From a virus, in IMG/VR virus record IMGVR_UViG_3300032092_000021, positions 1 through 64,000 of that record: a DNA stretch of 64,000 bases; one strand, given 5' to 3'. Under the pieces are notes generated by a model that searched no databases, was not told the origin of the DNA, and saw only the letters and a list, made by a program, of their open reading frames with translations. How positions within the stretch are numbered: position 1 is the first letter of the stretch; the number at the start of each line of letters is the position of its first letter. The translations under genes and the position numbers were made by a program. Shown in pieces: positions 23,468 to 58,251 of this stretch.

Positions 23468-23612
23468 AAAACAAATGATTAAGCGCAAAGATGGATCCTA
23501 CAGTCAACGAGGACTGTGGGATAATATTCGCGCTAACAAAGGTTCTGGTAAGAAACCTACTGCTGAAATGCTGAAACAAGAAAAGAAAATTAAAGCTAAA
23601 ACTAAAAAGTAA
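23454..23612 (+). CDS. Small Lys-rich protein (52 aa, MATSKKQMIKRKDGSYSQRGLWDNIRANKG...)
   Basis: Manually translated; TAATG-coupled to the next gene. Confidence 0.75.
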   Translation: MATSKKQMIKRKDGSYSQRGLWDNIRANKGSGKKPTAEMLKQEKKIKAKTKK

Positions 23613-23818
23613 TGGCAAAGAAACTTAAAAAATTTCAACCTGGTGGACCAACTAAAGAAGTTTCGCTTACAGAAAAAGTAAAAATAGCAAAACAACTTTA
23701 TAAAGATAATCCCGGTAAAGTTTATTTAGATGCTGTAATAAGAGCTGAGAAAAATTTAGCTGATTCTTTAGCAACACCTAAAAAAGTTATTCCTGTTGTT
23801 CCTAAAAAGAAAAAATAA
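23612..23818 (+). CDS. Small Lys-rich protein
   Basis: 68 aa, KKFQPGG motif, TAATG coupling. Confidence 0.75.
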   Translation: MAKKLKKFQPGGPTKEVSLTEKVKIAKQLYKDNPGKVYLDAVIRAEKNLADSLATPKKVIPVVPKKKK

Positions 23819-24066
23819 TGGCAAAATCACCTGCATGGCAAAGAAAAGAAGGTAAGTCAGAAAGTGGTGGACTTAACGCTAAGGGTAGAGCTTCCTACAA
23901 TAAAGAAACAGGAGGTAACCTTAAAGCACCACAACCTGAAGGTGGTTCTAGAAAAAAGTCTTTTTGTGCAAGAATGTCGGGGATGAAGAAGAAACTTACT
24001 TCTAGCAAGACAGCTAATGATCCAGATAGCAGGATTAATAAAGCTTTGCGTAAATGGAAATGTTAA
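23818..24066 (+). CDS. Small basic phage protein (GGLNAKGR...RKKSFCARM...LRKWKC family, DUF6321-like)
   Basis: Recognisable motif set widespread in aquatic phage structural regions. Confidence 0.8.
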   Translation: MAKSPAWQRKEGKSESGGLNAKGRASYNKETGGNLKAPQPEGGSRKKSFCARMSGMKKKLTSSKTANDPDSRINKALRKWKC

Positions 24067-24083
24067 CGTAAATTAGTAATAGT

Positions 24084-24269
24084 ATGGCTAAGAAATCAAA
24101 GTCTTCTTTACCGAAGAAATTATTTGGAGGTGGTGATAAAAAATATAATCCCGCGGTACCAGGAATATTTAACATGGGTCAGAGAATGGAAGGTGCTGCA
24201 AATGTGTTAAGTAAAGGTGCTGTACCTGGAATGAAAAAAGGTGGTTCTACTAAATCTAAAAAAAAGTAA
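24084..24269 (+). CDS. Small Lys-rich protein
   Basis: 61 aa; LFGGG and MKKGG motifs. Confidence 0.7.
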   Translation: MAKKSKSSLPKKLFGGGDKKYNPAVPGIFNMGQRMEGAANVLSKGAVPGMKKGGSTKSKKK

Positions 24270-24273
24270 TATT

Positions 24274-24423
24274 ATGAAAAGTAAATGCATGTCTTGCGGA
24301 GGATCTATGAAAGGTTCTTCAAAAACTAAAATGGAAAAAGGTGGTAGTGCTGGGGGTACTGCACTTAAGAATGCTCTTATCAAAGCTGGTTACAAAAAAG
24401 GTGGTTCTGTAAAGAAGAAGTAA
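24274..24423 (+). CDS. Small Lys-rich protein
   Basis: Likely start is ATG 24274; MEKGG and YKKGG motifs. Confidence 0.7.
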   Translation: MKSKCMSCGGSMKGSSKTKMEKGGSAGGTALKNALIKAGYKKGGSVKKK

Positions 24424-24569
24424 TGGCTGAGAAAAAAGACAAGAAATGGATTCAGAAAGCTATCAATCCTGCACATAAAGGATACTGTACGCCTATGACT
24501 AAATCTACTTGTACTCCTAAGAGAAAAGCACTTGCTATTACTCTTAAGAAAATGGCTAAAAAGAGATAA
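24423..24569 (+). CDS. Small Lys-rich protein (48 aa, MAEKKDKKWIQKAINPAHKGYCTPMTKSTCTPKRKALAITLKKMAKKR)
   Basis: Manually translated; TAATG coupling; KWIQKA...LA.TLKK motif. Confidence 0.78.
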   Translation: MAEKKDKKWIQKAINPAHKGYCTPMTKSTCTPKRKALAITLKKMAKKR

Positions 24570-24587
24570 CTATTAAACTTATATAAA

Positions 24588-24782
24588 ATGAAAAAGTCAG
24601 GTGGTGTTTATGTAAAACTGAACGGTAATCAAGCTGTTCAGAAAGTAGCTGGTTCTAAAGGTGCTGGTACTACTAAAAGTGTTAAGATCAATGAAGCTCA
24701 AAAGAAGGCAGGTGGTCGTGTAGGTGGTGGTAACAAACCAGCTTCTGTTGAGCCTAAGAGCAAGAAGAAAAACGTTAAGTAA
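24588..24782 (+). CDS. Small Lys/Gly-rich protein
   Basis: 64 aa, TAATG coupling. Confidence 0.7.
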   Translation: MKKSGGVYVKLNGNQAVQKVAGSKGAGTTKSVKINEAQKKAGGRVGGGNKPASVEPKSKKKNVK

Positions 24783-25012
24783 TGAAGAAAAACATACCTA
24801 AAATGGATATGGGAGGTCTCTACACAGGAGCATCTATGTCTCGTGACGTAGAGAACCAACCAATATCTGGGTATGGTACTTCTGAACCTAGCAGGTGTCC
24901 ACCTGATTGTGGCAGTAAAACCGCTCCTAAATCTAAGAGCGGAGGCATTGACTACAAACAAAGGAGAAAACAACAGGACAAAATAAAGCCATCAAACTGT
25001 CGTAGAAAATAA
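24782..25012 (+). CDS. Small basic protein
   Basis: 76 aa, KMDMGG motif, TAATG coupling on both sides. Confidence 0.7.
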   Translation: MKKNIPKMDMGGLYTGASMSRDVENQPISGYGTSEPSRCPPDCGSKTAPKSKSGGIDYKQRRKQQDKIKPSNCRRK

Positions 25013-25716
25013 TGTTAAATAGTACCCTTAGATTAAAGATTCAACAGCGATTAAACAAACTCGCTAGTCAGGATTATGATAATATCGAGTGCTGGCAGAT
25101 TGTTGAAGCTTTTAACAAAGCTCAGATTGAGTGGGTACGTAGACAGATTATGGGTCGCAATGCTGCACAAGCAGGTGCGGAGCAAACAGTAAGAAAGATT
25201 GATGATTTACAAAATCTACTTACACCCTTACCGTTAACTTCTATAAGCTCGGGTGATTACTATTTAACTCAGCCTCTACCAGATAACTATCTAGAGTATC
25301 ATAAGATTGATATCACAGCTACAAAAGACTGTTGTACTGATCCTAAGAAACTTATAGTCTATTTGGTTGAGGAAGTTAATAGCAGTATACTTTTAAGAGA
25401 TGAACTCCGCAAACCTAATTTTGAGTGGGCGGAGACTTTTTGCACAGTCGTAAATAATGCAATTAGGGTTTATACAAACAGAGAATTTGATATTAGAGAT
25501 ATTACTCTGATGTACTATAGACAACCCAGACGTATTGCTATTACAAACTGTGGTGACCCATATACCGGGTTAATAACAAGTACAGATGTAGAGTGTGAAT
25601 TCAAAGATGATATTGCTGAGGTGATTGTAGATGCAGCAGCATCTATCTTAGCAGCTGATATAGAATCATTTAGTCAGTATACGCGCACATCTCAACAATC
25701 AGAAAATAACACATAA
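25012..25716 (+). CDS. Head-tail adaptor/ring protein (crAss-like)
   Basis: FNKAQ...LP.NY...YYRQP...EVIVDAA pattern typical of P22 gp4-like ring proteins. Confidence 0.7.
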   Translation: MLNSTLRLKIQQRLNKLASQDYDNIECWQIVEAFNKAQIEWVRRQIMGRNAAQAGAEQTVRKIDDLQNLLTPLPLTSISSGDYYLTQPLPDNYLEYHKIDITATKDCCTDPKKLIVYLVEEVNSSILLRDELRKPNFEWAETFCTVVNNAIRVYTNREFDIRDITLMYYRQPRRIAITNCGDPYTGLITSTDVECEFKDDIAEVIVDAAASILAADIESFSQYTRTSQQSENNT

Positions 25717-25718
25717 TT

Positions 25719-26168
25719 ATGGAAAATAATGTTTTAAGGAGATCCCTAAAGACTGGGTCACAACAATCACAGACCGCGTCTTCTAGCACCAAAGGTGCTG
25801 ACATGGGTAAACTTGTTTCAGAATTTTTGGAAGCAGTAACTTCTGTACACAAAGCTCATCTCAAAATTACAGGTCCTGGTTCATATGCTGCACATACAGC
25901 AATGGGTGCGTTTTATGATGAAATCGGAGATCTTGCTGACTCTATTGCTGAGTCATACCAGGGAGTAACCGAGACGTTGTTGGATATTCCAGCAACTCAG
26001 CAAGCTTCTTGCAGTAGTGCTGCAGAATGTGTAAATTTTTTGAATAGTCTTTACCAAAAGGTGGATGCTGCTCAAAAAGCATGTGCTTATTCTGAGATTA
26101 TTAATGACCTAGACAATGTCAAGTCACTGATTAATAGCACTAAGTATAAACTGATTTTCTTGAAATAA
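25719..26168 (+). CDS. Ferritin/Dps-like four-helix protein (DUF5856-like)
   Basis: H..H.....SYAAH.A...FYD....LAD..AESYQG ferroxidase-like motif. Confidence 0.8.
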   Translation: MENNVLRRSLKTGSQQSQTASSSTKGADMGKLVSEFLEAVTSVHKAHLKITGPGSYAAHTAMGAFYDEIGDLADSIAESYQGVTETLLDIPATQQASCSSAAECVNFLNSLYQKVDAAQKACAYSEIINDLDNVKSLINSTKYKLIFLK

Positions 26169-45600: not shown

Positions 45601-47923
45601 AGAAATTGTAAGAACTATATCTACCACCGCATCTTGTTTTTACTCAGGAATAAAAATTAGATTTAGAAATCAGTACGGACAACTAGATGCCATCAGACAG
45701 ATTCCATTACCTTGTCCTCAGATTGTAAATAATAATTTAGCAATACCCGCAACTGCTATTACATCAACTCAAACAGGAACAAATATTCCATTAGCAGTTA
45801 CACAATTTAATGTTTCTTATGAAACCGGTGTATTGTTTGGAGGAGATACCTATATAGGTAGATACACAGAAAAGAATACTTTCTTTTATTTTTATGACTG
45901 GTTGTATGGTCAGCCAGATGACACTCCTTTTAACTATAGATCTAAATACTTAGGTTTATATCCAAGATACTGGGCAGACTTTAGCAGATACGACATAGAT
46001 GGTATGATACCTTCTATGCTGCAAAGTTTGAGTAATCCTGGTTCATGGGAAACTCCAAATAATCAAGTAAATCTTGAACAAGAAGCACCTACAGGAAGTG
46101 GTTTAACAGGACTTGTAGGATTTGTTGCAGGAGCTGTTAGTTCTGTGTTCAGTGGTCTTTTAAGTTTATTTAATCTGGGTGACAATGAAAATCAAAATGC
46201 TGGAGGCAGTAAATTTAGTTTTAGTATTAGAAGAGGTTTCATGTATCTCTTTAACTCTGGTGTAAGAGATTTTTATGTAGAGTCAGATATTAATGTGGAT
46301 CAAAGAGACTGGGGTGAGCTAGATGAGCAAAAACACTTTGAGATTCTTTCTGACCTTAAAAGATTATTTGACACTCGAATTATTAAGTTCGGTAACTACT
46401 ATAAGATTGATCCATCTGTTTCATTGTCAAAGCTTTACTACAGTGTAGTATCCTGGGGTAACATGCAGGATAGAGATTACAATCCGATTGTAGCTGCGCT
46501 GTGCTATAAGTATTTACCAAACAGAGTCATCTACTCATTGCCCACAGTACTTGAAGGTAAGAAGGATGGTTGGAGATTATACTTACCAAACAACTATAGA
46601 GACTTTAAATCTAAGGTTACTGCTATTAGACCTATAGGTAAGAATGGAGCGCTGATGCTTTTTGATAGGGATAGTCCCGTTCAGATTCAGGGTACCGAAA
46701 CTCTTGAGTCCGATATGGGAACTAAGATTACAGTAGGTGACGGTGCATTGTTTAATAAACCATTACAGGCACTTATAAACACAGACCAGTCTTATGAGTA
46801 CGGATCTTGTCAAGATAAGTTTTCAATTCTAAATACCCCAGCTGGCATCTACTGGGTATCCCAATCCCTAGGAAAAGTATTTACAGTAGGAAGCGGACTA
46901 GAAGAGATATCAGCATCTGGTATGCGTTGGTGGTTTAGTAAGTTTTTACCTTACAGAATACTAGAGGATTTTCCAAATTTTGAAGCTATAGACAATCCTG
47001 TAATTGGTGTAGGTTGTCAAGCTGTTTATGATAATGACTCTTTGATGATATACTTTAGTAAGAAGGACTATGAACTTAAAAAAGATTTACCCGCAGGAAT
47101 TAGTCTTACTTATGTAGGTGGTATAGATTTTCTTTTAAACACAGGGGGTTCTTCCGGAAGACCTAATGCTGCTAAAATTAAATTGGGTGACCCTACCTAC
47201 TTTAATGATGTCTCATGGACAATATCGTATGACCCTAAAGCAAAAGCTTGGGTGTCTTTCCACGATTGGCACCCTACAATGATGATTCCTAGTAACCAGA
47301 ATTTTATAACTATCAATGATAATACTTTCTGGAGACATAATGATCGCACAGATAGTTTCTGTAACTACTACGGTAAAGATTACCCTTTTCAAGTAGAGTA
47401 TGTAGTAGACACAGGACAAGCAGTAAATACTTTAAAAAGTATAGAATATTTACTTGAATCGTATATTTACGATATAGATGGTATAGATAGATTCCAGATC
47501 TTAGACTTTAACTTTGACGAGCTTACTGTATATAACTCTGAGCAGGTATCCGGAAAACTTATTCTCAACATGGCACCTAAGGATAATCCTTTTGCCAGAT
47601 TGAACTATCCTGCTGTAACTGGTGCAGGGATAAATATCATGTACGAGAAAGTAGAACAGAAGTTTAGAGTAAATCAGTTCTGGGATGTTACTGCAGATAG
47701 AGGTGAATATAACGTAAACGTACAGAGACCGATATGGTTAACAGGATGGGATGGATACAGAAGAGAGCTTAATCCAGCTAACCTTAACTATGCTAAGTCT
47801 GTATTTGAAAGAAAGAAGTTTAGACATTACTACAACAACGTTTTGTTTACCAGAAAGGTTTCAGGTAATGCTAAAATGCTAATGAAGATATCTAATAATA
47901 AGAACTTACTCTCACCAAGATAA
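42656..47923 (+). CDS. Tail stabilisation/muzzle protein (P22 gp10-like beta-propeller)
   Basis: 1755 aa; FTKGL..D, YFADG.NP.R.IN, GYMRDEVYSF, GGDTYI.RY and WTISY....W.SFHD motifs. Confidence 0.8.
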   Translation: MAKKQGTTPESGISSNSGSFTKGLVRDFDENFDPESSWPYARNASNNSKEGDVGVLGNEPSNSACGVAPYTVIGRIFLFNAYWAIFSTNDSESEIGVYDESLCQYRTVVNQKCLNFRKLKLITGVAKENFDCQWAVYFADGRNPDRYINLGNPTLWPDTMYMGNNYYQNQVLWPGVQWVKDCKDVNDCTICDLVNQLDCNQIRINKLVKTPCVRLSATEGGGNLANGSYVAFVAYLENGQKYSDYTSPSNVQPIFDHDNLGGAITATISNLENESFTEFELVIAATVNGQTVARRIGIYACDDAPVTVYLDSINDSLTTVPLELLPIRTPLYETADSIFETGSYLLKIGPRTTFDFNYQPLANQIQAKWSIVRYPINYYKDGGTNTGYMRDEVYSFFIRWIYVTGEKSRSYHIPGRIADSKDLTESIGIYPTELEYGFEKENTASVTSTTSSTLSDGGVVIAEGQMGYWESSEKYPDRKPEIWNSSYDPKLSGTSQTTWDLCNKPIRHHKMPEDVINNNANYSRAITLDGSGNVVANPGYTGATHLQVVGVKFSNVKPPVYIDDDGNAQVVPGISGYEILRGSRTGNKSVIAKGIINNMRVYKDIDDTLGLYANYPYNPVKNAPQPFGLPTIDPTLSFKEVNGSGGNYEEVTEAHVKKNFFTFHSPDTSFYKPFLSVKELKIYTELGNSKNVKGTFDPVPGHPKQKLITNVASTAALLLGIAEAVFAMKGDEEWIAEGNRALNLGFYGAFGGALTANVGAWSAPFVGPQAGAAVLAPLQTAELAAQIGTSTAAQASLGGFSSLGGASLVTGNNARLYNLGAQVANVGYTAATGGFMGPGLTKVHKEGTLSGMPTPIAAFAALPTLYTLATAAAAKTLDLIYAFVKARSYVYRYASHGFLHKDNVPPSNRRHYINDSAYLNEGFNMFANFKINNINRFKTTLLNTNTDVPVPAITDNTGVSLSRNVSPSILDTSDGRTKYYSEEIVRTISTTASCFYSGIKIRFRNQYGQLDAIRQIPLPCPQIVNNNLAIPATAITSTQTGTNIPLAVTQFNVSYETGVLFGGDTYIGRYTEKNTFFYFYDWLYGQPDDTPFNYRSKYLGLYPRYWADFSRYDIDGMIPSMLQSLSNPGSWETPNNQVNLEQEAPTGSGLTGLVGFVAGAVSSVFSGLLSLFNLGDNENQNAGGSKFSFSIRRGFMYLFNSGVRDFYVESDINVDQRDWGELDEQKHFEILSDLKRLFDTRIIKFGNYYKIDPSVSLSKLYYSVVSWGNMQDRDYNPIVAALCYKYLPNRVIYSLPTVLEGKKDGWRLYLPNNYRDFKSKVTAIRPIGKNGALMLFDRDSPVQIQGTETLESDMGTKITVGDGALFNKPLQALINTDQSYEYGSCQDKFSILNTPAGIYWVSQSLGKVFTVGSGLEEISASGMRWWFSKFLPYRILEDFPNFEAIDNPVIGVGCQAVYDNDSLMIYFSKKDYELKKDLPAGISLTYVGGIDFLLNTGGSSGRPNAAKIKLGDPTYFNDVSWTISYDPKAKAWVSFHDWHPTMMIPSNQNFITINDNTFWRHNDRTDSFCNYYGKDYPFQVEYVVDTGQAVNTLKSIEYLLESYIYDIDGIDRFQILDFNFDELTVYNSEQVSGKLILNMAPKDNPFARLNYPAVTGAGINIMYEKVEQKFRVNQFWDVTADRGEYNVNVQRPIWLTGWDGYRRELNPANLNYAKSVFERKKFRHYYNNVLFTRKVSGNAKMLMKISNNKNLLSPR

Positions 47924-50900
47924 TGAATTGGCTAGATAAATTTATAGTATCCGAAAGAGGTCAGTGGGATTATCCCGGTTATCCTACAGTAATTCCAACT
48001 AAAAATGGTAGAATAACAATGGAAGGTGTTCCATATCCTGTAATAGGATTTGTTCCTGGACAACCTCCTGTTATGATGCAACCTGGTAAAAATTATAAAT
48101 TTCCAGGTAACATGGTGTATGAAATACCTGTAACGGAAAATAAGGTTTTTAAAACCAAGGAGGATTTTTATAGAGATCTATTACTACAAACAAGAAATAA
48201 ATACTGGCCAAAAAGAGAAAGTAAACCTTTTGATTTAGGTTTTGATAGTGCGTTACCTAGAGTTGGTCCAGGACCAATTAAAATGCCTACTATAAGATCT
48301 AGTTATACCGGCATTGCAATGAAGCAAGGTGGACATATACTTCCAGGTAGACTTAAAAACCCAGAAGGTAACTGGGTGTCAGTATATGCTAACGGAGGAG
48401 ACATATCTATCCCAGATTTGTCTAGACCTAATTGGTTAGATAAGTATCAATCTAAAACTACATCTGGTTCTGTTTCTAAATCTGGTCCAAGAATTGAAAA
48501 CTTACCGATTCAGAAAGTTGATAACAAACTAGAAATAGCATATGATGGAAGCACTGTATACGTGCGTAAGATAGGTGAAGAGAAATTTACCACGCTTAAC
48601 CCGGAGAAGTCTAAAGCTTTTATTCAAAAGTACCAAGGGTTTATACCACCAACTCTAACTCAGGTTGAGGAACAGAAAAAGAAACAAGCTGCTTATAATG
48701 CAAAGATTGCCAAAGAGAAGAAAGAGTTTGATGAACTTCGCAAGGTAGATACTACTCCTAACCCTAGGGAGAAGGAGATGATGATAGAGCTTGCTAGAAA
48801 AGAAAGAGCAGAGCTAGGTGAAAAAGGTTTTCTTGAACAAGCATGGGACGCCTTACCAAATGCATCTTCTATTACAGATCCTATTAAAAGAGCATATCAT
48901 GCTTTACCGGATGTTGGAGATGTATCTAAGGTTGCTAGTGGAATGATGGGTCTACCCGAAGAGCTAGCAAAACAAGGAGTAAGCTATCTTTGGAATAATT
49001 ATAAAGTACCTCAGACCGATATTCCAGTTTTAAGGAGTATTGGTGAGCTTACACCAAAAGAGATATACGAAAGTTTTCAAAACAGATATGTAGAAAAAAA
49101 CTTTGGTGAAGCAGGTTTGATAGGTGAATCAAATCTTGAAGAGTTTAATGTTCTTGATGAGACATCTGGCACATCTAACATGCAAGAACTACCTAAAAGT
49201 AGAGCTAAGTACGGACCTCAAAGTTTACCATTAAGAAAAGACAGTAGAGGTAACTTGCTTCCTGCATATCAACCTATTGGTGGAAATGACTCGTTAGCTA
49301 GATTTAGTTACACATTTAACAATGACATTGCTGGTGCTGATAGTTTACCGCCAACCCACTTTGTTACTCCTAAGATAAAAGAGCTTACAGGAAATCCAGA
49401 TCGCCCTAGACAATGGGACAATGCATTTGCTGTAGGTGATTTCTTGAGAGACGCAGATATAACTGAGAATCAGTTTTATCATCCCGATAAATACTACGTG
49501 GGTACCTCTAACAGTGCATTGCGTAATAGTGATCTAGGTATAAAAAGTAATAAACTTATAAGTGCAAGTAATCAGCTAATTAACGATCCTGAAAAATACT
49601 GGGCAGTATATAAGTGGGATCCAAAAAATTCTGAAGCTGCGTGGGTTAGATACATGAAGACTGATGAGATAAAATCTAAAAAAGATGAACTTGAAAAACA
49701 AGGGTGGAGTCTAGATATGCCTGTTTCTGGTCAACACAGATTTGATGACGTAGATTGGGAGGGTAAAGGTTCAGATACAGGATACAAGGCAGACTCTGAA
49801 TGGGTACCTCTTAAGAAAGGTGCAAAACAAATAAAGAGTCAGAAAGGTGTAAATCATACCTACATTCCTCAAGGTACAAGTAAGGGTCAAGATAAAGGTA
49901 CTTACAATTTATTCTCGGGAGGTTCTATAACATTTATATGGAAAGATCCAGAGACCAATGAAAGATTAGCTTCAACTTTAGCTGGATCTGTATCTGATAT
50001 GAAAGCATATGGTGAAAAGCTTAAGAAAGAATATGGTTTGAAGGAAGGTGATCTTGAGATTGTTTATCATGATACAGGATCATACTCTGCTAAACCTGCT
50101 GCTAAAGATGGTACCCTATACTACGATCAGTGGAAAAACTACAATGCGTACAACAAGGGTTACTCTGGTGCAGCACTGATAGTACCTACACAAGATTGGT
50201 TAGAGAACTGGACTCCTAATAAGAAAGAAGGAGGACAACTAGATAAGTATCAATCTAAAGATACAGGTGCTATAAAAAAAGGATGGCATCAAAAAGTTTA
50301 TAATGATCCTGATGCATTTGCAAAAGCTAATAAAGCTTTTAACGATAGTCTTAATCTTAGCAAAAGAAGTTACGAGCTTCTTAAGGATATAGCTCCTAAC
50401 AGCTCATATAAAAGTAATATTCCCTATGAAGATGTATATTTTACTGCTGATGGACCAGGTGGTTATTTTATAGATAATGTTGACTTTGGTAGGCAGTTTT
50501 TAGGTTTAAATTATTTAACGGATACTAATTTTAGAATACCTGGCACAAAAGAGCAACTTATTTTAGAAGAAGCTTTTTCAAAAAGAATAAAACCAATAGG
50601 TTTTAATACAACTGACTTTCCAGTACCTATTTATAAATGGCCAACCGAAGAGCCCGTGTATGAAGAACTTAAAAACTTACCTTATCTAGATGCGAAACTG
50701 GAGCGTCCTGATTTTAAGTTAGATATAGGTAAACCACCGGTAAAGTCTCAGGGTATTAGAATTAGACCTATGATGACTGCCGATCAAACTACCAGTACTG
50801 GTCAGTATCAATCCGGTAAGTATATGTGGGATCCAGAAACAAAATCCTGGAAAGTCAAAATGCTAAGTCCTGAAACTCAACAAGAAAACAGAAAAGAGGT

Positions 50901-53058
50901 TAGAATAGGGATTAAAAAATATGGAGGTTGGTTAGATAAATACCAAGATGGTAAAGAAGTAAAAACATATGCTAATGATCCTAGCTACTTTGACAATCGT
51001 GCTGTATTTGTAGATAATCCACAAGCTAATGATCTAGTTAGATCTAAGGTGTATGCCGGAACACATGGATGGGATCCTAACACCAATTCATTAGTTAAGC
51101 TTGATAAACCAGTTGCTGTACCTAAAGCTGTGCAAGAGATGTCTACAGCAGATTGGGGTAAGAAAAGGTCTAAGGAAAGATTTGAATCTAACACACCAGC
51201 TGGTAAAGCTACAAGAAAAGCAGTAGTTGCAAGAGATATGCAACAGATGGTACAAAACCCTGCGTTCTACGCTCCCGGTGCTATTGCAGCTGGAGCACTT
51301 GCAGCACCCGCACTTGCGGGAGTTGCGGGAACACTAACAGCACCTTTGACTATAGGATCAACTGTAGTTCCAGGAGCTACTATGGGTAATGCGTTAGCTG
51401 CAGGATTTGCTGCAGATGCACTCGTAAATAGATTGCCACAAATCCCAGGACAATTAAACAGAGGTGAATATAGTGATGCTGCTATTAATGCCGCAACAGG
51501 ATTACTAGATGTGGGGTCTGCTGGTATGCTTAACTCTTTATATAAGACTGCAACAAAAGCTATTAAGTCTACATACGCTCCTTCCGAACTAGATATTATT
51601 AGAGGTCTATTAAAAAAGGGAAACCAACGCCAAATAGAAATAGAGCGTAATGTAAAACCAGTTCAGGCTACAATATCACAAAATCCATATTCAGTAACAT
51701 TACCAACTCTTACAAAAGAAGAAGATCTTATAAGAGATAGTTATAATAGAAACAGATGGTCTAATGATCCCGGATTCTGGAGATGGTATAATAAAAAACA
51801 TCATGGTTTAGATTACGATAGACCTATTAAAAGATTTTTTGATCCATCAGATCCTGGACATTTGTCTGATACTGCTGATGATGCAAATAGAGTATCATTC
51901 TTTGACTCTTCCGAGATGTCAAATATAGACAGTCAAATTAAACAAGGTAATACTTGGTTACAAGATTGGTTTAAAAATCCTGCTACTGCTCAAAGAATAG
52001 CGAATACAGGGTTTGACGAGTCTTCGTTAGTTAGAAAAAACATTAACGATTTTGTAGATAATAAAAATGTTGTAAGATTTGAGCCCTCCTTAAGCTCAAA
52101 AATATGGACAGGAAATGAATTAGGAAGTTACTTTCCTAAGTCTAATAAAGCATATGTAGATGCGGAGCATTTTTCTTTTATGGATGGAACCAAATCAATA
52201 CCATCAACAGTAATACATGAGGGTACGCATTTAACAAGTGCTGGAGAACTTGCTTATAATCAGAAACTAACAGATCTTACAGCTGATATATTTAGGGGTA
52301 GTGATGCAAGTGAGTTTGCTAAAATGTTCCGTACAGAAAATGATATTAAAAAAGTTAATAAACTGACATCTCCTGCAGAAACACATGCTAGGATTATGCA
52401 AATAAGACAACAGTATAATATAAAACCAGAGCAAATAGTTGATGATACAGTTATCAATAAAATTATAGAGGACGGTCTTTCCGGTAAATTGCCCGTAAGC
52501 AAAAAATTCTTTGAGCTAATTCAAAACAAAGATGCTTTCAAAAAAGCAATGAATACTTTACCTGCAATAGGTGCGGGCGTTGCTATAGGTACTGGAGGAT
52601 TACAAGAAAAGAAAACCGGTGGATCAACAAGATGGTTAGATCGATATCAGGATGGTGGGTCTAGAGAGATGCCACTCGGACTACCCTTGAGAGAACAAAA
52701 CGTTTACTTACTTCCTGAGTATAATCAACCAATGGCTAATGGTTATATTCTTCCTGATCCTAACAGACCAGAGTTAATGAATACAGGAGCTACTGAGTAT
52801 AAGTATTCATATGGAATGGACGACAGAGATGTTCAAGTTCCAAGTGTAGTAGCAGGTCAGTATATTGGAGATAGAGCTTTTGATAGATATATGATATCCG
52901 GAGAAGAGTTTAAACCAATGGTTGACCCAAGTTCCTATAGCCAATACTACGATATGCTTAATAGATTAGGGTTAATGAAACAGAAAAAAGGAGGAGAAAT
53001 GTCCCCAAGTATGGGATATTTTAACTATATTGGTGGATATGGGGGTATGTTGCCTTAA
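47923..53058 (+). CDS. Modular ejected (cargo) protein with zincin metallopeptidase domain
   Basis: HEGTH...ETHAR zincin motif; Ala/Gly hydrophobic segment; repeated WLDKYQ linkers. Confidence 0.7.
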   Translation: MNWLDKFIVSERGQWDYPGYPTVIPTKNGRITMEGVPYPVIGFVPGQPPVMMQPGKNYKFPGNMVYEIPVTENKVFKTKEDFYRDLLLQTRNKYWPKRESKPFDLGFDSALPRVGPGPIKMPTIRSSYTGIAMKQGGHILPGRLKNPEGNWVSVYANGGDISIPDLSRPNWLDKYQSKTTSGSVSKSGPRIENLPIQKVDNKLEIAYDGSTVYVRKIGEEKFTTLNPEKSKAFIQKYQGFIPPTLTQVEEQKKKQAAYNAKIAKEKKEFDELRKVDTTPNPREKEMMIELARKERAELGEKGFLEQAWDALPNASSITDPIKRAYHALPDVGDVSKVASGMMGLPEELAKQGVSYLWNNYKVPQTDIPVLRSIGELTPKEIYESFQNRYVEKNFGEAGLIGESNLEEFNVLDETSGTSNMQELPKSRAKYGPQSLPLRKDSRGNLLPAYQPIGGNDSLARFSYTFNNDIAGADSLPPTHFVTPKIKELTGNPDRPRQWDNAFAVGDFLRDADITENQFYHPDKYYVGTSNSALRNSDLGIKSNKLISASNQLINDPEKYWAVYKWDPKNSEAAWVRYMKTDEIKSKKDELEKQGWSLDMPVSGQHRFDDVDWEGKGSDTGYKADSEWVPLKKGAKQIKSQKGVNHTYIPQGTSKGQDKGTYNLFSGGSITFIWKDPETNERLASTLAGSVSDMKAYGEKLKKEYGLKEGDLEIVYHDTGSYSAKPAAKDGTLYYDQWKNYNAYNKGYSGAALIVPTQDWLENWTPNKKEGGQLDKYQSKDTGAIKKGWHQKVYNDPDAFAKANKAFNDSLNLSKRSYELLKDIAPNSSYKSNIPYEDVYFTADGPGGYFIDNVDFGRQFLGLNYLTDTNFRIPGTKEQLILEEAFSKRIKPIGFNTTDFPVPIYKWPTEEPVYEELKNLPYLDAKLERPDFKLDIGKPPVKSQGIRIRPMMTADQTTSTGQYQSGKYMWDPETKSWKVKMLSPETQQENRKEVRIGIKKYGGWLDKYQDGKEVKTYANDPSYFDNRAVFVDNPQANDLVRSKVYAGTHGWDPNTNSLVKLDKPVAVPKAVQEMSTADWGKKRSKERFESNTPAGKATRKAVVARDMQQMVQNPAFYAPGAIAAGALAAPALAGVAGTLTAPLTIGSTVVPGATMGNALAAGFAADALVNRLPQIPGQLNRGEYSDAAINAATGLLDVGSAGMLNSLYKTATKAIKSTYAPSELDIIRGLLKKGNQRQIEIERNVKPVQATISQNPYSVTLPTLTKEEDLIRDSYNRNRWSNDPGFWRWYNKKHHGLDYDRPIKRFFDPSDPGHLSDTADDANRVSFFDSSEMSNIDSQIKQGNTWLQDWFKNPATAQRIANTGFDESSLVRKNINDFVDNKNVVRFEPSLSSKIWTGNELGSYFPKSNKAYVDAEHFSFMDGTKSIPSTVIHEGTHLTSAGELAYNQKLTDLTADIFRGSDASEFAKMFRTENDIKKVNKLTSPAETHARIMQIRQQYNIKPEQIVDDTVINKIIEDGLSGKLPVSKKFFELIQNKDAFKKAMNTLPAIGAGVAIGTGGLQEKKTGGSTRWLDRYQDGGSREMPLGLPLREQNVYLLPEYNQPMANGYILPDPNRPELMNTGATEYKYSYGMDDRDVQVPSVVAGQYIGDRAFDRYMISGEEFKPMVDPSSYSQYYDMLNRLGLMKQKKGGEMSPSMGYFNYIGGYGGMLP

Positions 53059-53089: not shown

Positions 53090-55345
53090 ATGAAAAAAGA
53101 ATTTATGCGAATAGGGGGAGCTAAAACTGAAAAAGAGTTTTACGAAATGTACCCAACAGAAGAAGCTTTCCTTATGAAACATGGTGGCGCTATAAATAAA
53201 CTTATGGCAAAAGGTGGTGAAGCATATCCACAAACAGCTACTATGGATAACTTTTTTAGTTACGGGGTACCAGTCCCACCTACTTACTATCGTCAGGGTG
53301 GTGCATTCCCTATGGCACAACCAGAGAATCAGTTCTTCTCCCCTTTCTATGGAAACGTTCCTAACCCATACAATAAAGCTATGGGTGGAAGCTCTGAAGC
53401 ATATCCCCAGTCAATGTCTTTTCCCTATGGAGACACTGGTAGAAGCACACACTTTATGATGGAAGAGGGTGGGTATATGCCTGAAGAACAAACTCTGCCA
53501 AAGATGGGAGTCAACGGTAAACTCCTAGAGTTTGTTGGTACTATTAAAAACACAGCTACTAATAAACTAAACAGTAATCTTGCTACATACGGTAAAGTAA
53601 AGAACCCTGAGCAGTATGAATTTGAGCAAGCTAAATACGGTGGTAATCTAAAAAAATATCAGGCTGATGCTACTTCCGGAAATACACCACCTCAAGACGC
53701 TGGTGCTGTTTCTGACAAACCTGCAGGAAGCAATGTTTACAATTATTACTACGGATATGATCCTCGTCAGAATCAAGGAGCTGGTCAACTTCCTCCAGAA
53801 TACTATAATGACATAGACTATTTACGTGGAAGAAGAAGACCACTCAGTGACTTTAATATTCGCGGTAGAGGTATGGCGGGTAATTATAGAGCAACTGGTT
53901 GGTTGAAAGATGAGTATGGATTGGATAGACTTAGAGAAATGGGTCTAACTAGAATGGATCAAAGTAATCCAAGATGGTGGCAGTTAATGAAGCGTCCTAC
54001 ACAAACTTACTATTTTGGAAATCAGGGACAAGGACCAATGGGATATGTACCAGGTCAAGTAGATCAACAAGGTATGCCTATTACAAACCAACAAGGACCT
54101 GCTGCAGGGGGTGCAGGTACTACTGGTACTACTGGCGGCACAGGTACTACCGGTACAGGTCAACCAGATTCTACATCAGATTTAGGTTTCTTTGCTAGAC
54201 TGTTTAATAGACAAGGTAATATAACTCCGCAGTCAGCAAATATTACTAGGAAACCTACAGATCTTCAAGCAGGATCTCCTGAAATGATTAGTGACGCTAA
54301 CCCCTATGCTTATAACATTGCAAAGTCTGATACTTGGAACCAGATTCAACAGAATAAGAGAAAGAGAATTTTTGGAAAGCTGGATGAACTAGAAGGTCGT
54401 AAACAGTGGCAAAAAGATACTCTTGGTTTAGCTTATGACAATATGAAAAATAAACCTGTTGATCCTGTAACGGGTAAACCGTTTGATAGAGAGGAATATA
54501 TGGCAGCAGGTGACCAGTTATACGGCAGGAAAAAAAGACAAGAAGATAGATTAAAGAGAAGAGAAACAAGATCAAACGATAGATTTGGCATTTACGATGA
54601 AGGTGGCAGCACACCCCCATGTCCTCCAGGATATACTTGGAAAGGAGGACAGTGTGTAAAACAATCTAGAAAAGAAAGAAGAGAAAACCCTCAGCAATAT
54701 CAATCTCATGTAGGGGAATCTTATAGAACTCCTGTTACTGCTGCTGAATATAAAAGACAAGAAGAAAGTAAAGCTAGAGAACAAGAGCTCATGAGACAGG
54801 AAGCTGAGCAAGAAAAGTATTTAAGAGATCTTCCTACTATGGATTCTTCTGAAGAGTACCTTAAAAATAATCCTAAGGATACACCTTTTGTAAAAAATAA
54901 AGATGTTACAGTAGGGACACCCATAACAGAAGATCCATATAGAGCTTTACCGGGAGCTAATCCAGTGCTTACTTTTCCTTTAACTAGTTATGAGCAGTTT
55001 TATCCTCAGAACATGATTAAAAGAGATGTTTATGCTCCACAGATGGAAGTACCATATGAGTTTCCTAATTACACAGATCGTGAGAGACTTTCGAATCTTT
55101 TAGATGCTGTTGATGCTGGACTTATTCCATCTAATTTTCGTACTACTGATCCAATGGAAATAGAAAGACAAAATAGAATTTCAGATGCTGTTGGTTCTGG
55201 AGTACCTTTTAATCTATCCGGTCCTAGAGAATACAGAAAAGGTGGATCTTCTAGAAATTACAATACGGGAGATGTAGTAGATATGACTCCGGAAGAACTA
55301 AAGAGATTCATTGAAATGGGTGGTCAAGTAGAATTCTTAGACTAA
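53090..55345 (+). CDS. Low-complexity internal virion/cargo protein
   Basis: Multiple xxGG motifs, largely disordered composition, located in the cargo cluster. Confidence 0.65.
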   Translation: MKKEFMRIGGAKTEKEFYEMYPTEEAFLMKHGGAINKLMAKGGEAYPQTATMDNFFSYGVPVPPTYYRQGGAFPMAQPENQFFSPFYGNVPNPYNKAMGGSSEAYPQSMSFPYGDTGRSTHFMMEEGGYMPEEQTLPKMGVNGKLLEFVGTIKNTATNKLNSNLATYGKVKNPEQYEFEQAKYGGNLKKYQADATSGNTPPQDAGAVSDKPAGSNVYNYYYGYDPRQNQGAGQLPPEYYNDIDYLRGRRRPLSDFNIRGRGMAGNYRATGWLKDEYGLDRLREMGLTRMDQSNPRWWQLMKRPTQTYYFGNQGQGPMGYVPGQVDQQGMPITNQQGPAAGGAGTTGTTGGTGTTGTGQPDSTSDLGFFARLFNRQGNITPQSANITRKPTDLQAGSPEMISDANPYAYNIAKSDTWNQIQQNKRKRIFGKLDELEGRKQWQKDTLGLAYDNMKNKPVDPVTGKPFDREEYMAAGDQLYGRKKRQEDRLKRRETRSNDRFGIYDEGGSTPPCPPGYTWKGGQCVKQSRKERRENPQQYQSHVGESYRTPVTAAEYKRQEESKAREQELMRQEAEQEKYLRDLPTMDSSEEYLKNNPKDTPFVKNKDVTVGTPITEDPYRALPGANPVLTFPLTSYEQFYPQNMIKRDVYAPQMEVPYEFPNYTDRERLSNLLDAVDAGLIPSNFRTTDPMEIERQNRISDAVGSGVPFNLSGPREYRKGGSSRNYNTGDVVDMTPEELKRFIEMGGQVEFLD

Positions 55346-55350
55346 TTACA

Positions 55351-58251
55351 ATGAAAGTTAGAATCACAAAAGCTCCTAAGGTTAAAAAGTATCAAGCTTT
55401 ATTTACCCCTGGTCAAGTAGAGGAGGATCCTTTTTATGTACCAAACAGTATGGATGGTCAAAGGAATTATGTAAATGCTCCTATTAATTTACAAACTAAT
55501 CAAAATGGTAGTCTTGCTGGTTCTGGTGTTTTACAACCCGGATTAGCTCTTGATAAAAACAACCAGACTGTAAATCTCAATAATGTAAACGACAACGTTA
55601 CAAATGAGCAACAAATTAGCAAAGGTTTGCAAGGTAGCATAACAGAAAAAGGTCAGTCAAAGTTTGGTCAGTTTATAAGAGGTTTAGGACCTAAAGGTGG
55701 AATGAAGGCTTATGAAAATCGTCAAGACTGGAAAGAGATTATTGCGGGGATTGCTAGCAGAAAGAGTAAAAAAGATATGGATGCGCAAGCCGTTAAAGGT
55801 TTTCATAATATGCAACCTATTGCTGCAGCAACCCAGGGTACGTTTGATCCTAATAGTATGAATAACTTTACTCCTGGTATGCTAAACACAGTACCTTCTA
55901 CAGGAGATTTTGCTGCATCACCATATATGAATATGGGTTATGGAAAAAATGGTGGTCAATACATGGCATATGGTGGTAGAGTGTTTAATCAGGTAGCACC
56001 TAATGCTTTACCCGATAAAACATCTGAACCTAGAATAGCTGTATCAAATACACTACAGCCAATACCTAGAGAGTTTGCAAATATTGAAGCAGAGAAAGAT
56101 GAGACTATATACTTCTTAAACAACGGTGGTCTTCCTGCACATTATAAGATTGGTGGTCAACCGCACAGCAAGGGAGGAACTCCTTTAAATGTTCCCGAAG
56201 ATAGCTTTGTATTTAGTAAAGCGTTGAAGATTAAGGATAAAAGATTGTTTCCTTTTTTTGATATAAATAAACCTACCAGCTTTTCAGATGTTGCTAAAAA
56301 ATACGATATAAATAAATTTAGAAAAGTATTAGCAGATCCTGATACGGACAAGTTGCAAAGAGAAACTGCCGAGAAGATGATTGGTAACTACAATCTTAAA
56401 CTCGGTATGTTAGCTTTAGCGCAAGAATCTACAAAAGGATTCCCGCAAGGTTTACCTATGATAGCTGCACCGTTTACTGCAGTTAATGCGCTAGATCCAG
56501 AAATGATTTTACCTACACCACCTCAGTCTGCTGAGATGCCGGAAGAACAATTTATGGAACAAGAGATGCCCGCTTATAAATTCGGAGGAGCTATGAGAGT
56601 TAGAATTAAATCTTTACCTAGATATCAGTCATACAATACTGGTGCTAGTGTTGCTGATGATATGATGTCAGATGCTGGTTTATCTGACCAAACTTACGTA
56701 CAAACCCCACCAGCAAATATACCCCCACCTCCACCTGTTGCTGTTGTTACACCTGCTGCACCAGCAGCACCTCCTGCAGCAACTGTAGCTACTCCTACAG
56801 CTACTCCTCCACCTACTATTGTGGTAAATGGAGTTACAATAGATACAGCAACTAATCAACCTGTAGCTAAGTCTTCTCCTGCTAGTGACAATAAAAAGAA
56901 AGCATCTAAATCAGAGTCTAAAAGTACCGCAGGTACATTTGATTTCAATGTAGATGTTATGGAGGGTAATCCTGACTTTTGGCAGGGTTACACTGATTTG
57001 GTTACATCTGGTGTTATCAAACAAGAATTAGCAACAGGGTTTGAAGATGCTGCTGTTCGTCAGCGCGAAAGTCAACAAGGTCTTAGACCAGGTACTGCAA
57101 ACGTATATGGTGATAGAGATATTCATAAGGGAGAACTCTTTGATGACTTTAAGAAAAGACAAGCGTGGTATTTTCAAAATAAGAAAAACTGGAATCCTGA
57201 AAATAAAGCTGACGTAGAAGACTTTCAAAGAGAGTATTGTAAAAAAGCTGCTGAGTACGGTATGAAGTCTTGTTACTTTAATACCAAGGATGTAAAAGAT
57301 TCTAAAGGTAGAACTATAAAGGGGACTACGTTTGATGGTCTTTATGGTGAGCACACTTTTAATGCTCCAGGATTTAATAAAGCTGATGCACAACCAGAAC
57401 CTCAACCACAACCTCAACCAGAACCAGAAAAAAAACCAGAACCTATTAAGACTAATCCTTTAGATGTATCTGAGGATTATACTCGTAGAAGCGGTTATTT
57501 CCCTCAGGATCTTATAAATCTTTCTGCAGCTTTAGCTCAAAGAATTACTGTACCTGATACATGGTATGCTCCTTTACAGTTTAAAGGTGTAGACCCTGCG
57601 TATCTGGTACCGGACTATAGTCCAATCATGGAAGCTGCTAATATTAGCACTCAGGGTGTTAATGCTTATGGTTCTCGTCAAAGTGCAGATGCTTCATTTG
57701 CTCTTATTCAGGGTAAATCAGCAAGACCTTCTGCGGAACATAATCTAGCAGTTGCTAATGCTAATGCAGGTATTTACAATAACGCTCAGCAGATTAACGC
57801 ACAGATAGCAAATCAAAATGCTATGTACAATAATCAGTTAGCTCAAGCAGACTTTGATGCTAATGCACTTTATGAGCAAGAAAGAATAAAAGCTCAGAAT
57901 AAAAAGAGAGCGGATCTTGCTAGACTTGTAAACACCGCGATTACCAATAGAGCTACTGCAGAAACTCTTAGCGATGCATACTCCGAGTATTTCAATATAG
58001 ATCCTACTCGTGGCGGACATGTTGAGTTCTACAAAGGAATTGATGAGCTTGTACCTAACGACAAAGCAGATATGGACGATCTTGCATCACTTGATAAACA
58101 GCTTACAAATCTTGGTTACACTAAAGAAGAAAAGAAAGATATTCTTAAATCTGCACTAGCCAGTAAGTATGCTACAAAGGGTACTAGGAATCCATATCTA
58201 CCTGATTACTCGCAGCTTATGTATCCATTTAACATGCAGCAGGGTTCTTAA
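55351..58251 (+). CDS. Ejected cargo protein (crAss cargo-1-like) with candidate peptidoglycan-binding motif
   Basis: NIEAEKDE...G..HSKGG...FVFS motif; Pro/Ala linker; V.DFQ...DGLYG..T motif; Asn/Gln/Ala coiled coil. Confidence 0.65.
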   Translation: MKVRITKAPKVKKYQALFTPGQVEEDPFYVPNSMDGQRNYVNAPINLQTNQNGSLAGSGVLQPGLALDKNNQTVNLNNVNDNVTNEQQISKGLQGSITEKGQSKFGQFIRGLGPKGGMKAYENRQDWKEIIAGIASRKSKKDMDAQAVKGFHNMQPIAAATQGTFDPNSMNNFTPGMLNTVPSTGDFAASPYMNMGYGKNGGQYMAYGGRVFNQVAPNALPDKTSEPRIAVSNTLQPIPREFANIEAEKDETIYFLNNGGLPAHYKIGGQPHSKGGTPLNVPEDSFVFSKALKIKDKRLFPFFDINKPTSFSDVAKKYDINKFRKVLADPDTDKLQRETAEKMIGNYNLKLGMLALAQESTKGFPQGLPMIAAPFTAVNALDPEMILPTPPQSAEMPEEQFMEQEMPAYKFGGAMRVRIKSLPRYQSYNTGASVADDMMSDAGLSDQTYVQTPPANIPPPPPVAVVTPAAPAAPPAATVATPTATPPPTIVVNGVTIDTATNQPVAKSSPASDNKKKASKSESKSTAGTFDFNVDVMEGNPDFWQGYTDLVTSGVIKQELATGFEDAAVRQRESQQGLRPGTANVYGDRDIHKGELFDDFKKRQAWYFQNKKNWNPENKADVEDFQREYCKKAAEYGMKSCYFNTKDVKDSKGRTIKGTTFDGLYGEHTFNAPGFNKADAQPEPQPQPQPEPEKKPEPIKTNPLDVSEDYTRRSGYFPQDLINLSAALAQRITVPDTWYAPLQFKGVDPAYLVPDYSPIMEAANISTQGVNAYGSRQSADASFALIQGKSARPSAEHNLAVANANAGIYNNAQQINAQIANQNAMYNNQLAQADFDANALYEQERIKAQNKKRADLARLVNTAITNRATAETLSDAYSEYFNIDPTRGGHVEFYKGIDELVPNDKADMDDLASLDKQLTNLGYTKEEKKDILKSALASKYATKGTRNPYLPDYSQLMYPFNMQQGS

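What the first reader, a model, noticed from the sequence alone, without database searches (positions are those of the whole stretch)
23612..58251. A shared (K/M/Y/F)xxGG motif marks tiny basic proteins and cargo proteins: candidate capsid-targeting or cleavage code
Seen in small ORFs: FQPGG, LFGGG, MKKGG, MEKGG, YKKGG, KKSGG, KKAGG, MDMGG. In 47923..53058: MKQGG, YANGG, KKEGG, KKYGG, KKTGG, YQDGG, QKKGG. In 53090..55345: MKHGG, MAKGG, YRQGG, KAMGG, MEEGG, AKYGG, YDEGG, YRKGG. In 55351..58251: GKNGG, MAYGG, YKFGG. Many copies sit at domain boundaries or are followed by (K/R)YQ. Known: T4 internal proteins use a capsid-targeting sequence; adenovirus and ASFV proteases cut core proteins after GG. 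Inference: one short signal that loads diverse proteins into the head and/or directs their processing; I am not aware of it being described for crAss-like phages.
Basis: partly seen in the sequence, partly recalled or inferred. Interest (0 to 1): 0.8.

Follow-up and report, generated by a model that had tools for sequence, protein, structure and literature searches.

The report
Gly-Gly junction peptide in crAss-like cargo
An uncultured crAss-like phage marks the joints and ends of the proteins it probably carries inside its particle, and many tiny basic proteins of its head module, with one short conserved peptide; I found no published description of it, and whether it is cut, used as a docking handle or only a hinge is untested.

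Summary
All listed pentapeptides are present. [KMYF]xxGG is enriched in the three proteins after the muzzle gene (17 seen, 4.6 expected) and in the tiny basic proteins (10 vs 2.1), but not in other structural proteins. Distant relatives repeat this (53 vs 22-25; controls 9 vs 6-7).

The loose motif resolves into a composite peptide: aromatic/Met-[K/R/Q]-x-G-G, 0-3 residues, then [W/S/Q]-L-[D/K]-[K/R]-Y-Q-x-G. A profile trained only on cargo joints finds head-module array proteins and 72 further sites in 79 independent contigs, with no reversed-sequence decoys.

The peptide lies at module-swap seams. It also forms the extreme C-terminal tail (GGWLD..) of the first cargo protein in 14 distinct relatives.

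It is not a universal packaging tag, because the giant downstream proteins lack it. I found no GG-specific peptidase in three complete genomes and no HK97-type prohead protease; the T4-type model could not be validated. The zincin-like HExxH motif is missing where the joints are best. In crAss001 a similar FGGWL lies inside the modelled stretch 425-552.

My reading is an uncut docking handle plus seam (about 0.45). Cleavage (0.2) and a passive hinge (0.2) remain open.

This scan found the same motif in at least eight other genomes, with the same open question.

The parts
47923..53058 (+). First cargo protein after the muzzle gene (1711 aa), a string of modules
   Evidence: It lies directly after the muzzle gene (PF25731 hit on 42656-47923). 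BLAST against L081 shows an 82% block that begins and ends at joints, an unrelated module in between, and a shared 27-residue C-terminal tail.
47923..47943 (+). N-terminal copy of the core peptide (MNWLDKF)
48433..48462 (+). Junction peptide copy (WLDKYQSKTT)
   Evidence: Profile hit of 9.7 bits.
50218..50265 (+). Junction peptide copy (NKKEGGQLDKYQSKDT)
   Evidence: 19.5 bits. It shares a 20-nt identical stretch with the copy at 48433.
50911..50958 (+). Junction peptide copy (IKKYGGWLDKYQDGKE), the seam of a module swap against L081
   Evidence: 22.2 bits. The 82% homology block ends here.
52609..52662 (+). Junction peptide copy (KKTGGSTRWLDRYQDGGS)
   Evidence: 16.8 bits.
53090..55345 (+). 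Second cargo protein (751 aa). It has a conserved N-terminal helical part, a long low-confidence region with aromatic-x-x-GG-x-EAYPQ repeats, and a conserved C-terminal GGxVEFLD element.
   Evidence: Alignment A1. AlphaFold2 gives mean pLDDT 41.6, with residues 42-412 below 50.
53627..53674 (+). Junction peptide copy (QAKYGGNLKKYQADAT)
   Evidence: 18.8 bits.
55351..58251 (+). Third cargo protein (966 aa), the likely counterpart of crAss001 cargo protein C1 (gp45)
   Evidence: hhalign against gp45 residues 479-512 gives E 0.022 and probability only 2%. The core G-x-x-H..G..P-E-[GD]..V-F-S-[DK] is shared with gp45, phi4:1 gp040 and Fpv1 gp31. The link is weak.
56581..56631 (+). Long-spacer copy (FGGAMRVRIKSLPRYQS) that repeats the protein's own N-terminus (MKVRITKAPKVKKYQ)
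23303..25012 (+). Array of nine tiny (48-82 aa), mostly Lys-rich proteins between the gp33-like gene and the ring 3/4-like gene, with adjacent or overlapping starts and stops
   Evidence: In 20 relatives the array holds 1-11 genes of changing content.
23624..23647 (+). Half-motif LKKFQPGG near the N-terminus of a 68-aa protein
   Evidence: 5.9 bits, above the best decoy at 3.9.
24228..24248 (+). C-terminal half-motif GMKKGGS followed by TKSKKK
   Evidence: At 3.2 bits it is below the best decoy, so it rests on the clade-wide enrichment.
24388..24417 (+). C-terminal half-motif GYKKGGSVKK
   Evidence: 4.3 bits.
23818..24066 (+). DUF6321 mini-protein. It is a member of the array but does not carry the motif in the strict sense.
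   Evidence: PF19846 at 1e-22. It is 65-82% identical to proteins of T4-like cyanophages and is also found in pelagiphages.

Best explanation
The motif is a conserved short linear peptide of the phage's internal (ejected) proteins. It consists of a flexible Gly-Gly spacer preceded by aromatic/Met-Lys, followed by a short amphipathic core ([W/S/Q]-L-[D/K]-[K/N/R]-Y, often then Q-x-G-G).

I think it stays uncut and works as a docking handle. On this reading a partner inside the particle recognises it and uses it to place these proteins. Candidate partners are the scaffold, portal, tail-barrel rings or muzzle; none has been identified.

Every payload module carries the peptide at its end. Recombination between copies, and fusion or fission of genes at copies, can therefore swap or add modules without loss of placement. 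This would produce the 'string of cassettes' proteins.

The low-complexity tiny basic proteins of the head module carry the same peptide or its halves, mostly at their very ends. They would be loaded by the same route.

Shown here: the peptide, its conservation, its restriction to these protein classes, its position at seams and termini, and the lack of a recognisable GG-specific or HK97-type prohead protease. Inferred: binding, the partner, and packaging of the tiny proteins.
For: 1. Specific and conserved. A profile built from 21 cargo joints of 7 genomes gives 54 hits of at least 4 bits against 1237 ORFs and none among the reversed decoys. In 79 further contigs it gives 72 hits of at least 6 bits and none among decoys, spread over 46 contigs.

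2. Shared between the two protein classes. That cargo-only profile finds full composite copies in head-module array proteins of relatives, for example KKHGGSVKKYQAGG at 14.5 bits.

3. Terminal positions, where a hinge has no purpose.
- Fourteen distinct first-cargo proteins end in (GG)WLD plus 1-8 residues. WLD is invariant and GG nearly so at 23-91% identity.
- In 139 array proteins the GG half-motif occurs 78 times against 6.0+-2.6 expected. Twenty-one copies lie within 12 residues of the C-terminus (0.7 expected) and 14 within 12 of the N-terminus (1.2 expected).

4. Seams.
- The 82% block between the window and L081 begins and ends at joints, with an unrelated module swapped in.
- Across 163 cargo proteins, 18% of internal homology-block ends lie within 5 residues of a hydrophobic-x-x-GG site, against 5% at random.

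5. The constraint acts on the protein. Copies differ at synonymous sites, Gly codon pairs are unbiased, and there are no Shine-Dalgarno sequences.

6. Precedent. In crAss001, short segments of cargo protein gp45 dock on the portal wing, on rings R1/R2 and next to the muzzle's ring-joining domain. No cleavage is reported. Its stretch NAFGGWLNTQGG (residues 424-436) opens the part modelled as 425-552.

7. The region that carries the repeats shows no predicted repeat fold.
Against: - No binding partner is known and nothing here measures binding.
- The giant downstream proteins, which are probably packaged too, lack the peptide. The handle would therefore serve only a subset of internal proteins.
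- Three quarters of homology-block ends are not at the motif.
- In the window itself the tiny proteins carry only half-motifs, with scores close to the decoy ceiling.
- The crAss001 parallel is a weak look-alike that my profile does not score.
- The AlphaFold2 model rests on 7 sequences, so its low confidence is weak evidence of disorder.
Confidence: 0.45

Rival explanations
1. Polyprotein processing site. A phage or host protease cuts at the joint, after GG or after YQ. This releases the modules, trims short propeptides from both ends of the tiny proteins as T4 does with its capsid targeting sequences, and possibly chops the tiny proteins into basic peptides.
For: - The joints lie between unrelated modules.
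- The sequence after an internal GG repeats natural N-termini: MNWLDKF, and MKVRI..KKYQ against GGAMRVRIKSLPRYQ.
- The motif clusters within 12 residues of both termini of array proteins, like propeptides.
- S is favoured at +1.
- Four of six first-cargo proteins carry an HExxH motif. Zincin peptidase domains of polyvalent proteins are proposed to process such proteins themselves (PMC5512222).
Against: - No C48, C5 or C39 peptidase and no S78 prohead protease appears in the window's genome or in three complete relatives.
- No protease family was found in the head module.
- L081 has five textbook joints and no HExxH in its cargo proteins.
- The register differs from adenain, PLpro and double-glycine leaders, where the hydrophobic residue is two positions before the first G. 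Here it is three before.
- Natural gene ends fall after WLD.., not after GG.
- crAss001 gp45 is modelled through its FGGW, and the paper mentions no cleavage.
Confidence: 0.2
2. Passive seam. The peptide is only a flexible linker plus a recombination-friendly sequence kept by descent, with no partner that reads it.
For: - The surrounding regions have low AlphaFold2 confidence and no predicted fold.
- Two copies share 20 identical nucleotides.
- Modules are swapped at copies.
Against: - The consensus is conserved residue by residue at 23-40% overall identity, while synonymous sites vary.
- Copies sit at extreme C- and N-termini, where nothing is linked.
- The peptide occurs in 20 of 46 otherwise unrelated clusters of tiny proteins.
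Confidence: 0.2
3. Composition artefact. Lys-, Gly- and Tyr-rich disordered sequence gives such pentapeptides by chance.
Against: - Global and local-window shuffles are exceeded by about 6 standard deviations in independent genomes.
- Preferences are position-specific out to +6.
- No decoy hits occur.
Confidence: 0.03

Closest known systems
Cargo proteins C1 (gp45) and C2 (gp46) of Bacteroides phage crAss001 (Bayfield et al. 2023, PMC10172136)
   Same: - The genes lie directly after the muzzle gene.
- The proteins are largely extended or unresolved inside the particle.
- Short segments dock on the portal, tail-barrel rings and muzzle.
- The window's 966-aa protein shares the conserved core of the portal-bound gp45 domain.
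- gp45 has an excess of GG (21 vs 13.4), an FGGWL at the start of that domain and a KKAKGGKVRTKKKK tail.
   Different: - The composite peptide is not detectable in gp45 or gp46 with my profile.
- crAss001 has no multi-module first cargo protein and no array of tiny basic proteins.
- The homology to gp45 is weak (hhalign E 0.022, probability 2%).
Capsid targeting sequences and the hypervariable internal-protein locus of T4-like phages (Mullaney and Black 1996, as reviewed in PMC9026906)
   Same: A short shared terminal peptide on otherwise unrelated small basic internal proteins, encoded in a locus whose content changes between close relatives. It serves as an address for loading into the head.
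   Different: - The T4 peptide is strictly N-terminal, binds the scaffolding core and is removed by the gp21 protease after Glu.
- Here the peptide is internal, N-terminal or C-terminal.
- No gp21-type protease was found, although that search was not validated.
- Loading has not been shown.
Polyvalent proteins of phages and conjugative elements (Iyer et al. 2017, PMC5512222)
   Same: Large proteins delivered with the DNA, built of many unrelated domains that vary between relatives and often include a zincin-like metallopeptidase. The first cargo protein fits this description, and four of six relatives carry HExxH.
   Different: That work, as far as I read it, describes no conserved junction peptide. 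The domains here match no Pfam family.
GG-specific viral and bacterial proteases (adenain C5, Ulp1/ASFV pS273R-type C48-like, C39 double-glycine leader peptidases)
   Same: A Gly-Gly pair preceded by a hydrophobic residue.
   Different: The register is shifted by one residue. None of these enzyme families is encoded.

Membership tests
T4-type capsid targeting sequence system | Peptide confined to the first ~10 residues of the precursor | tested here: not met
   Copies are internal, N-terminal and C-terminal.
T4-type capsid targeting sequence system | Removal by a gp21-type (S77) prohead protease | tested here: inconclusive
   PF03420 gave no match in 5 records, but the control genomes gave none either. 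No cleavage data exist.
T4-type capsid targeting sequence system | Shared by diverse small basic proteins of a hypervariable head-module locus | tested here: met
   Arrays hold 1-11 genes. Of 46 clusters, 20 carry the motif.
Adenain / clan CE GG-X processing | The virus encodes a C5 or C48-type cysteine protease | tested here: not met
   PF00770 and PF02902 are absent from the window's genome and from three complete relatives.
Adenain / clan CE GG-X processing | Consensus (M/I/L)-X-G-G|X | tested here: not met
   The hydrophobic residue is enriched three positions before the first G, and K/R/Q two before.
Double-glycine leader / C39 peptidase | C39 peptidase domain present | tested here: not met
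   PF03412 is absent, while the controls were positive in 7 genomes.
Polyvalent proteins (Iyer et al. 2017) | Many unrelated domains in one polypeptide, varying between relatives | tested here: met
   Module swap and module-number difference, 1711 vs 2311 aa.
Polyvalent proteins (Iyer et al. 2017) | Zincin-like metallopeptidase domain | tested here: inconclusive
   An HExxH motif occurs in 4 of 6 first-cargo proteins. There is no family match and the fold was not tested.
Polyvalent proteins (Iyer et al. 2017) | Delivered into the host with the DNA | not testable with these tools
   Only position after the muzzle gene, and a mass-spectrometry-proven virion homologue in phi4:1 (gp040).
Crassvirus cargo protein C1 (gp45) | Sequence homology to the portal-bound domain | tested here: inconclusive
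   hhalign E 0.022 with 2% probability, plus a shared core motif. No PDB hit with the family profile.

The most novel reading that the evidence does not exclude
The WLD-type peptide with its Gly-Gly spacer is an address code for the interior of crAss-like particles. Any module or tiny DNA-binding protein that carries it, at either end or between modules, is docked uncut on a fixed virion component and ejected in order. This would let these phages exchange injected payloads freely. It would be a second, mechanistically different counterpart of the T4 capsid targeting sequence, and a ready tag for loading foreign proteins into crassvirus particles.
Probability: 0.3. Interest if true: 0.8.

Novelty: new variant of a known kind. 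Interest (0 to 1): 0.55.

Why it matters
Crassviruses carry megadaltons of protein in head and tail. How those proteins are chosen, placed and ejected in order is unknown.

A conserved peptide is present in hundreds of environmental crAss-like genomes. It marks exactly the first proteins after the muzzle gene and a variable set of tiny basic proteins. That gives a concrete, mutable handle on the question.

If it is an address, it explains how injected payloads can be swapped as cassettes, and it offers a tag for loading proteins into such particles. If it is a cutting site, it points to an unrecognised protease.

The tiny basic proteins are also shared with T4-like cyanophages and T7-like pelagiphages, always in head or packaging modules. 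This suggests a common, unstudied class of small proteins encoded in head or packaging modules of aquatic phages; whether they are head-associated is untested.

Tried and rejected
- Shine-Dalgarno-like DNA signal (AAGGAGG from K-G-G codons). Rejected: genes have no Shine-Dalgarno sequence upstream, and GG codon pairs follow general Gly usage.
- DNA-level repeat as the only cause. Rejected: copies differ at synonymous sites, apart from one identical 20-nt pair.
- Structural repeat fold in the GG-rich N-terminal half of the 751-aa protein. AlphaFold2 gives no such fold, but confidence is low.
- KGG stress-protein repeat (PF10685). It was not among the Pfam matches of the tiny proteins at E up to 1.
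- tblastn of two motif-bearing tiny proteins against cultured phages gave no match.
- Single-protein searches for relatives of the cargo proteins found only one contig. A family alignment was needed.
- Profile of the 966-aa family against PDB sequences gave no hit.
- One complex prediction tested the C-terminal GGWLD tail of a relative's first cargo protein against the conserved N-terminal part of the next cargo protein (alignments A4 and A3). The tool gave no verdict. This is not evidence either way.
- Pfam on the giant downstream proteins of G005 gave nothing, so I cannot name them RNA polymerase subunits. PHROGs and BLAST link one of them to phi4:1 gp038.
- Literature searches for the peptide strings, for crAss cargo processing and for DUF6321 found nothing relevant.
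Full report
**What the window is**

The window is part of a 75-kb virus record of a divergent crAss-like phage. The identified genes are:
- large terminase, 14001-16217;
- portal, 16219-18981, 31% identical to Leptolyngbya phage Lbo-JY46 and 22-28% to crassviruses;
- Crass_capsid major capsid protein, 20339-21967;
- a ring 3/4-like protein, 25012-25716;
- Ring 2, 41065-41739, and Ring 1, 41739-42653;
- the muzzle protein, 42656-47923 (PF25731).

Genes have A/T-rich leaders without Shine-Dalgarno sequences. By position, the proteins after the muzzle gene correspond to the cargo proteins of crAss001 (PMC10172136).

**Checking the observation**

All listed pentapeptides exist. Within-protein shuffles show [KMYF]xxGG enriched in two places only:
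- the three proteins after the muzzle gene (17 seen, 4.6 expected);
- six tiny ORFs (10 seen, 2.1 expected).

These were the cargo proteins of four distant relatives (the conserved neighbouring protein is 31-40% identical). They give 53 seen against 22 (global shuffle) or 25 (shuffle within 20-residue windows). Control proteins of the same loci give 9 against 6-7.

**The refined motif**

Residue preferences around 159 GG sites are:
- Y/M/F/H at -3, K/R/Q at -2, Y/H/E at -1;
- S at +1, Y at +5, Q at +6;
- P at -5, M/L at -6.

The underlying unit is a composite peptide: aromatic/Met-[K/R/Q]-x-G-G, 0-3 residues, then [W/S/Q/N]-L-[D/K]-[K/R]-Y-Q-x-G(G). Twenty-one instances come from seven genomes. 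The window's first cargo protein holds five copies, including its own N-terminus, MNWLDKF.

**Specificity and spread**

I built a profile from cargo joints only and searched 1237 ORFs of the window, a complete relative and 80 portal-centred contigs, together with reversed decoys. It gave 54 hits of at least 4.0 bits and no decoy above 3.9.

The new hits are mainly proteins of the head-module array in relatives. Examples are KKHGGSVKKYQAGG, MKKGGMVKKYQRGG and FKKGGSMKTLKKAQKG. The window's own 68-aa protein (LKKFQPGG) scores 5.9 bits.

A second independent set of 79 contigs was found with an alignment of the 966-aa family. It gave 72 hits of at least 6 bits and no decoys, in 46 contigs, all in the genes after the muzzle gene.

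In cultured, more distant phages the composite fades:
- Cellulophaga phage phi4:1 gp040, a virion protein by mass spectrometry, keeps four [YF]QxGG copies.
- Flavobacterium phage Fpv1 has none.
- crAss001 gp45 has only an excess of GG, one FGGWLNTQGG and a K-rich GG tail.

**The tiny basic proteins**

In 20 relatives the array between the gp33-like gene and the ring 3/4-like gene holds 1 to 11 genes. There are 139 proteins with a median of 82 aa, 19% Lys and 6% acidic residues.

The GG half-motif occurs 78 times against 6.0+-2.6 in shuffles. It is concentrated at the ends: 21 copies lie within 12 residues of the C-terminus (0.7 expected) and 14 within 12 of the N-terminus (1.2 expected). Typical forms are ..[MFY]KKGG[STA]xKKKK at the end and MKKYQxGG at the start.

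Clustering gives 46 groups, and 20 carry the motif in at least half of their members.

The conserved mini-domain families of the array lack the motif. One of them is the window's 82-aa DUF6321 protein:
- It is 65-82% identical to proteins of T4-like cyanophages and also occurs in pelagiphages and others (529 records).
- In pelagiphage HTVC131P it lies between the scaffold and capsid genes with two more tiny basic ORFs.
- In cyanophage S-SM1 it is the end of a 495-aa fusion of such mini-domains, between the two terminase genes.

The array is thus a variable depot of small basic proteins shared among unrelated aquatic phages, always in head or packaging modules. This favours a head-associated role but does not prove one.

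**Seams and tails**

The window's first cargo protein and its relative in L081 (2311 aa) share an 82% block that starts and stops at joints. After the joint at residue 1001-1013 the window has a module with HExxH, while L081 has an unrelated module. The last 27 residues are again shared.

Over 163 cargo proteins, internal ends of homology blocks (at least 50% identity and 80 aa) lie within 5 residues of a hydrophobic-x-x-GG site in 18% of cases, against 5% at random. The link is real, but most ends lie elsewhere.

The most telling result concerns protein ends. Fourteen distinct first-cargo proteins end in (GG)WLD followed by 1-8 residues, just before the gene of the 751-aa family (one has a small inserted gene in between). 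WLD is invariant and GG nearly so at 23-91% identity. A peptide kept at the extreme end of a protein is not a hinge.

**Is it cut?**

No result here indicates cutting.
- No C48, C5 or C39 peptidase and no HK97-type prohead protease is detectable in the window's genome or in three complete relatives. The T4-type search could not be validated.
- No protease family appears in the head module.
- The HExxH motif occurs in four of six first-cargo proteins. It is missing from L081, which has five perfect joints.
- The hydrophobic position is one residue further from GG than in the adenain, PLpro or double-glycine consensus.
- Natural gene ends fall after WLD.., not after GG.
- For crAss001 the paper reports no cleavage. 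It models gp45 from residue 425 through F426-G427-G428-W429.

Several facts would still fit processing. The motif clusters near both termini of tiny proteins. Sequences after internal GG resemble natural N-termini. Self-processing by zincin domains has been proposed for polyvalent proteins (PMC5512222). I keep cleavage at about 0.2.

**Is it a universal packaging tag?**

No. In the complete 110.5-kb relative G005, enrichment is confined to the three proteins after the muzzle gene and the small basic proteins. The giant proteins downstream (3239, 4181 and 1892 aa) are at or below expectation. One of them is 64% identical over 251 residues to phi4:1 gp038, a virion protein by mass spectrometry. 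gp038 itself has no copy.

**Other explanations tested**

- The constraint is on the protein, not the DNA. Copies differ at synonymous sites except for one 20-nt identical pair, and Gly codon pairs are unbiased.
- AlphaFold2 on the 751-aa protein (7-sequence alignment) gives mean pLDDT 41.6. The GG-rich region 42-412 is below 50 and has no repeat fold. This is compatible with disorder but weak.
These are the gp45-like core of the 966-aa protein and the C-terminal ..GGxVEFLD element of the 751-aa family.

**Conclusion**

The peptide is real, clade-wide and, as far as I could search, undescribed.

Earlier follow-ups in this scan reached the same description on at least eight other genomes. Notes on this genome pointed me to the WLDKYQ core.

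My best reading is an uncut docking handle with a Gly-Gly spacer that doubles as the seam for cassette exchange (0.45). Processing (0.2) and a passive linker (0.2) are the rivals. Virion mass spectrometry of a cultured carrier would decide between them.

Noticed in passing
window 23818-24066: The 82-aa DUF6321 protein is 65-82% identical to proteins of T4-like cyanomyoviruses and is also found in T7-like cyanopodoviruses, pelagiphages and Microcystis phages (529 records). That is unusual conservation across unrelated phage families. In those phages it also lies in head or packaging modules, sometimes fused with other mini-domains that are separate genes in this clade.
   Followed up: partly
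window 25719-26168: A Dps/ferritin-like protein (DUF5856, phrog_858 'starvation-inducible') is encoded inside the structural module, right after the ring 3/4-like gene.
   Followed up: no
window 55229-55342 and relatives (alignment A1): The 751-aa family ends in a conserved ~35-residue element, Y-x-x-GG-x-Y ... [ED]-E-[IL]-x-x-[FI]-[IL]-x-x-G-[GY]-x-[VI]-E-[FY]-L-D. It is the best-conserved part of an otherwise very variable protein and may be a second terminal handle.
   Followed up: partly
window 53090-53210 and alignment A3: The N-terminal ~35 residues of the 751-aa family (M-x-K-x-E-I-L ... E-F-Y-x-M-Y-P-T-x-E) are conserved across 14 relatives. They are the only part AlphaFold2 predicts with confidence (helices, pLDDT 70-85).
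   Followed up: partly
window 2529-5741: A 1070-aa protein has 18% Gly and 68 GG pairs (35 expected) in a stretch of higher G+C (0.42-0.45) than the rest of the window. It does not carry the K/aromatic context of the motif.
   Followed up: no
L122 about 6108-6725: In one relative a 204-aa gene whose start resembles a GIY-YIG homing endonuclease is inserted between the first cargo gene (which ends GGWLDNLLD) and the 751-family gene.
   Followed up: no
window 52216-52230 (residues 1432-1436 of 47923-53058): An HExxH motif (STVIHEGTH) lies in a module that BLAST links at 32% identity to the matching part of the first cargo protein in L084. A second, different HExxH context (YV.xHE.xH) occurs in L082 and L085. 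Neither matches a Pfam family.
   Followed up: partly
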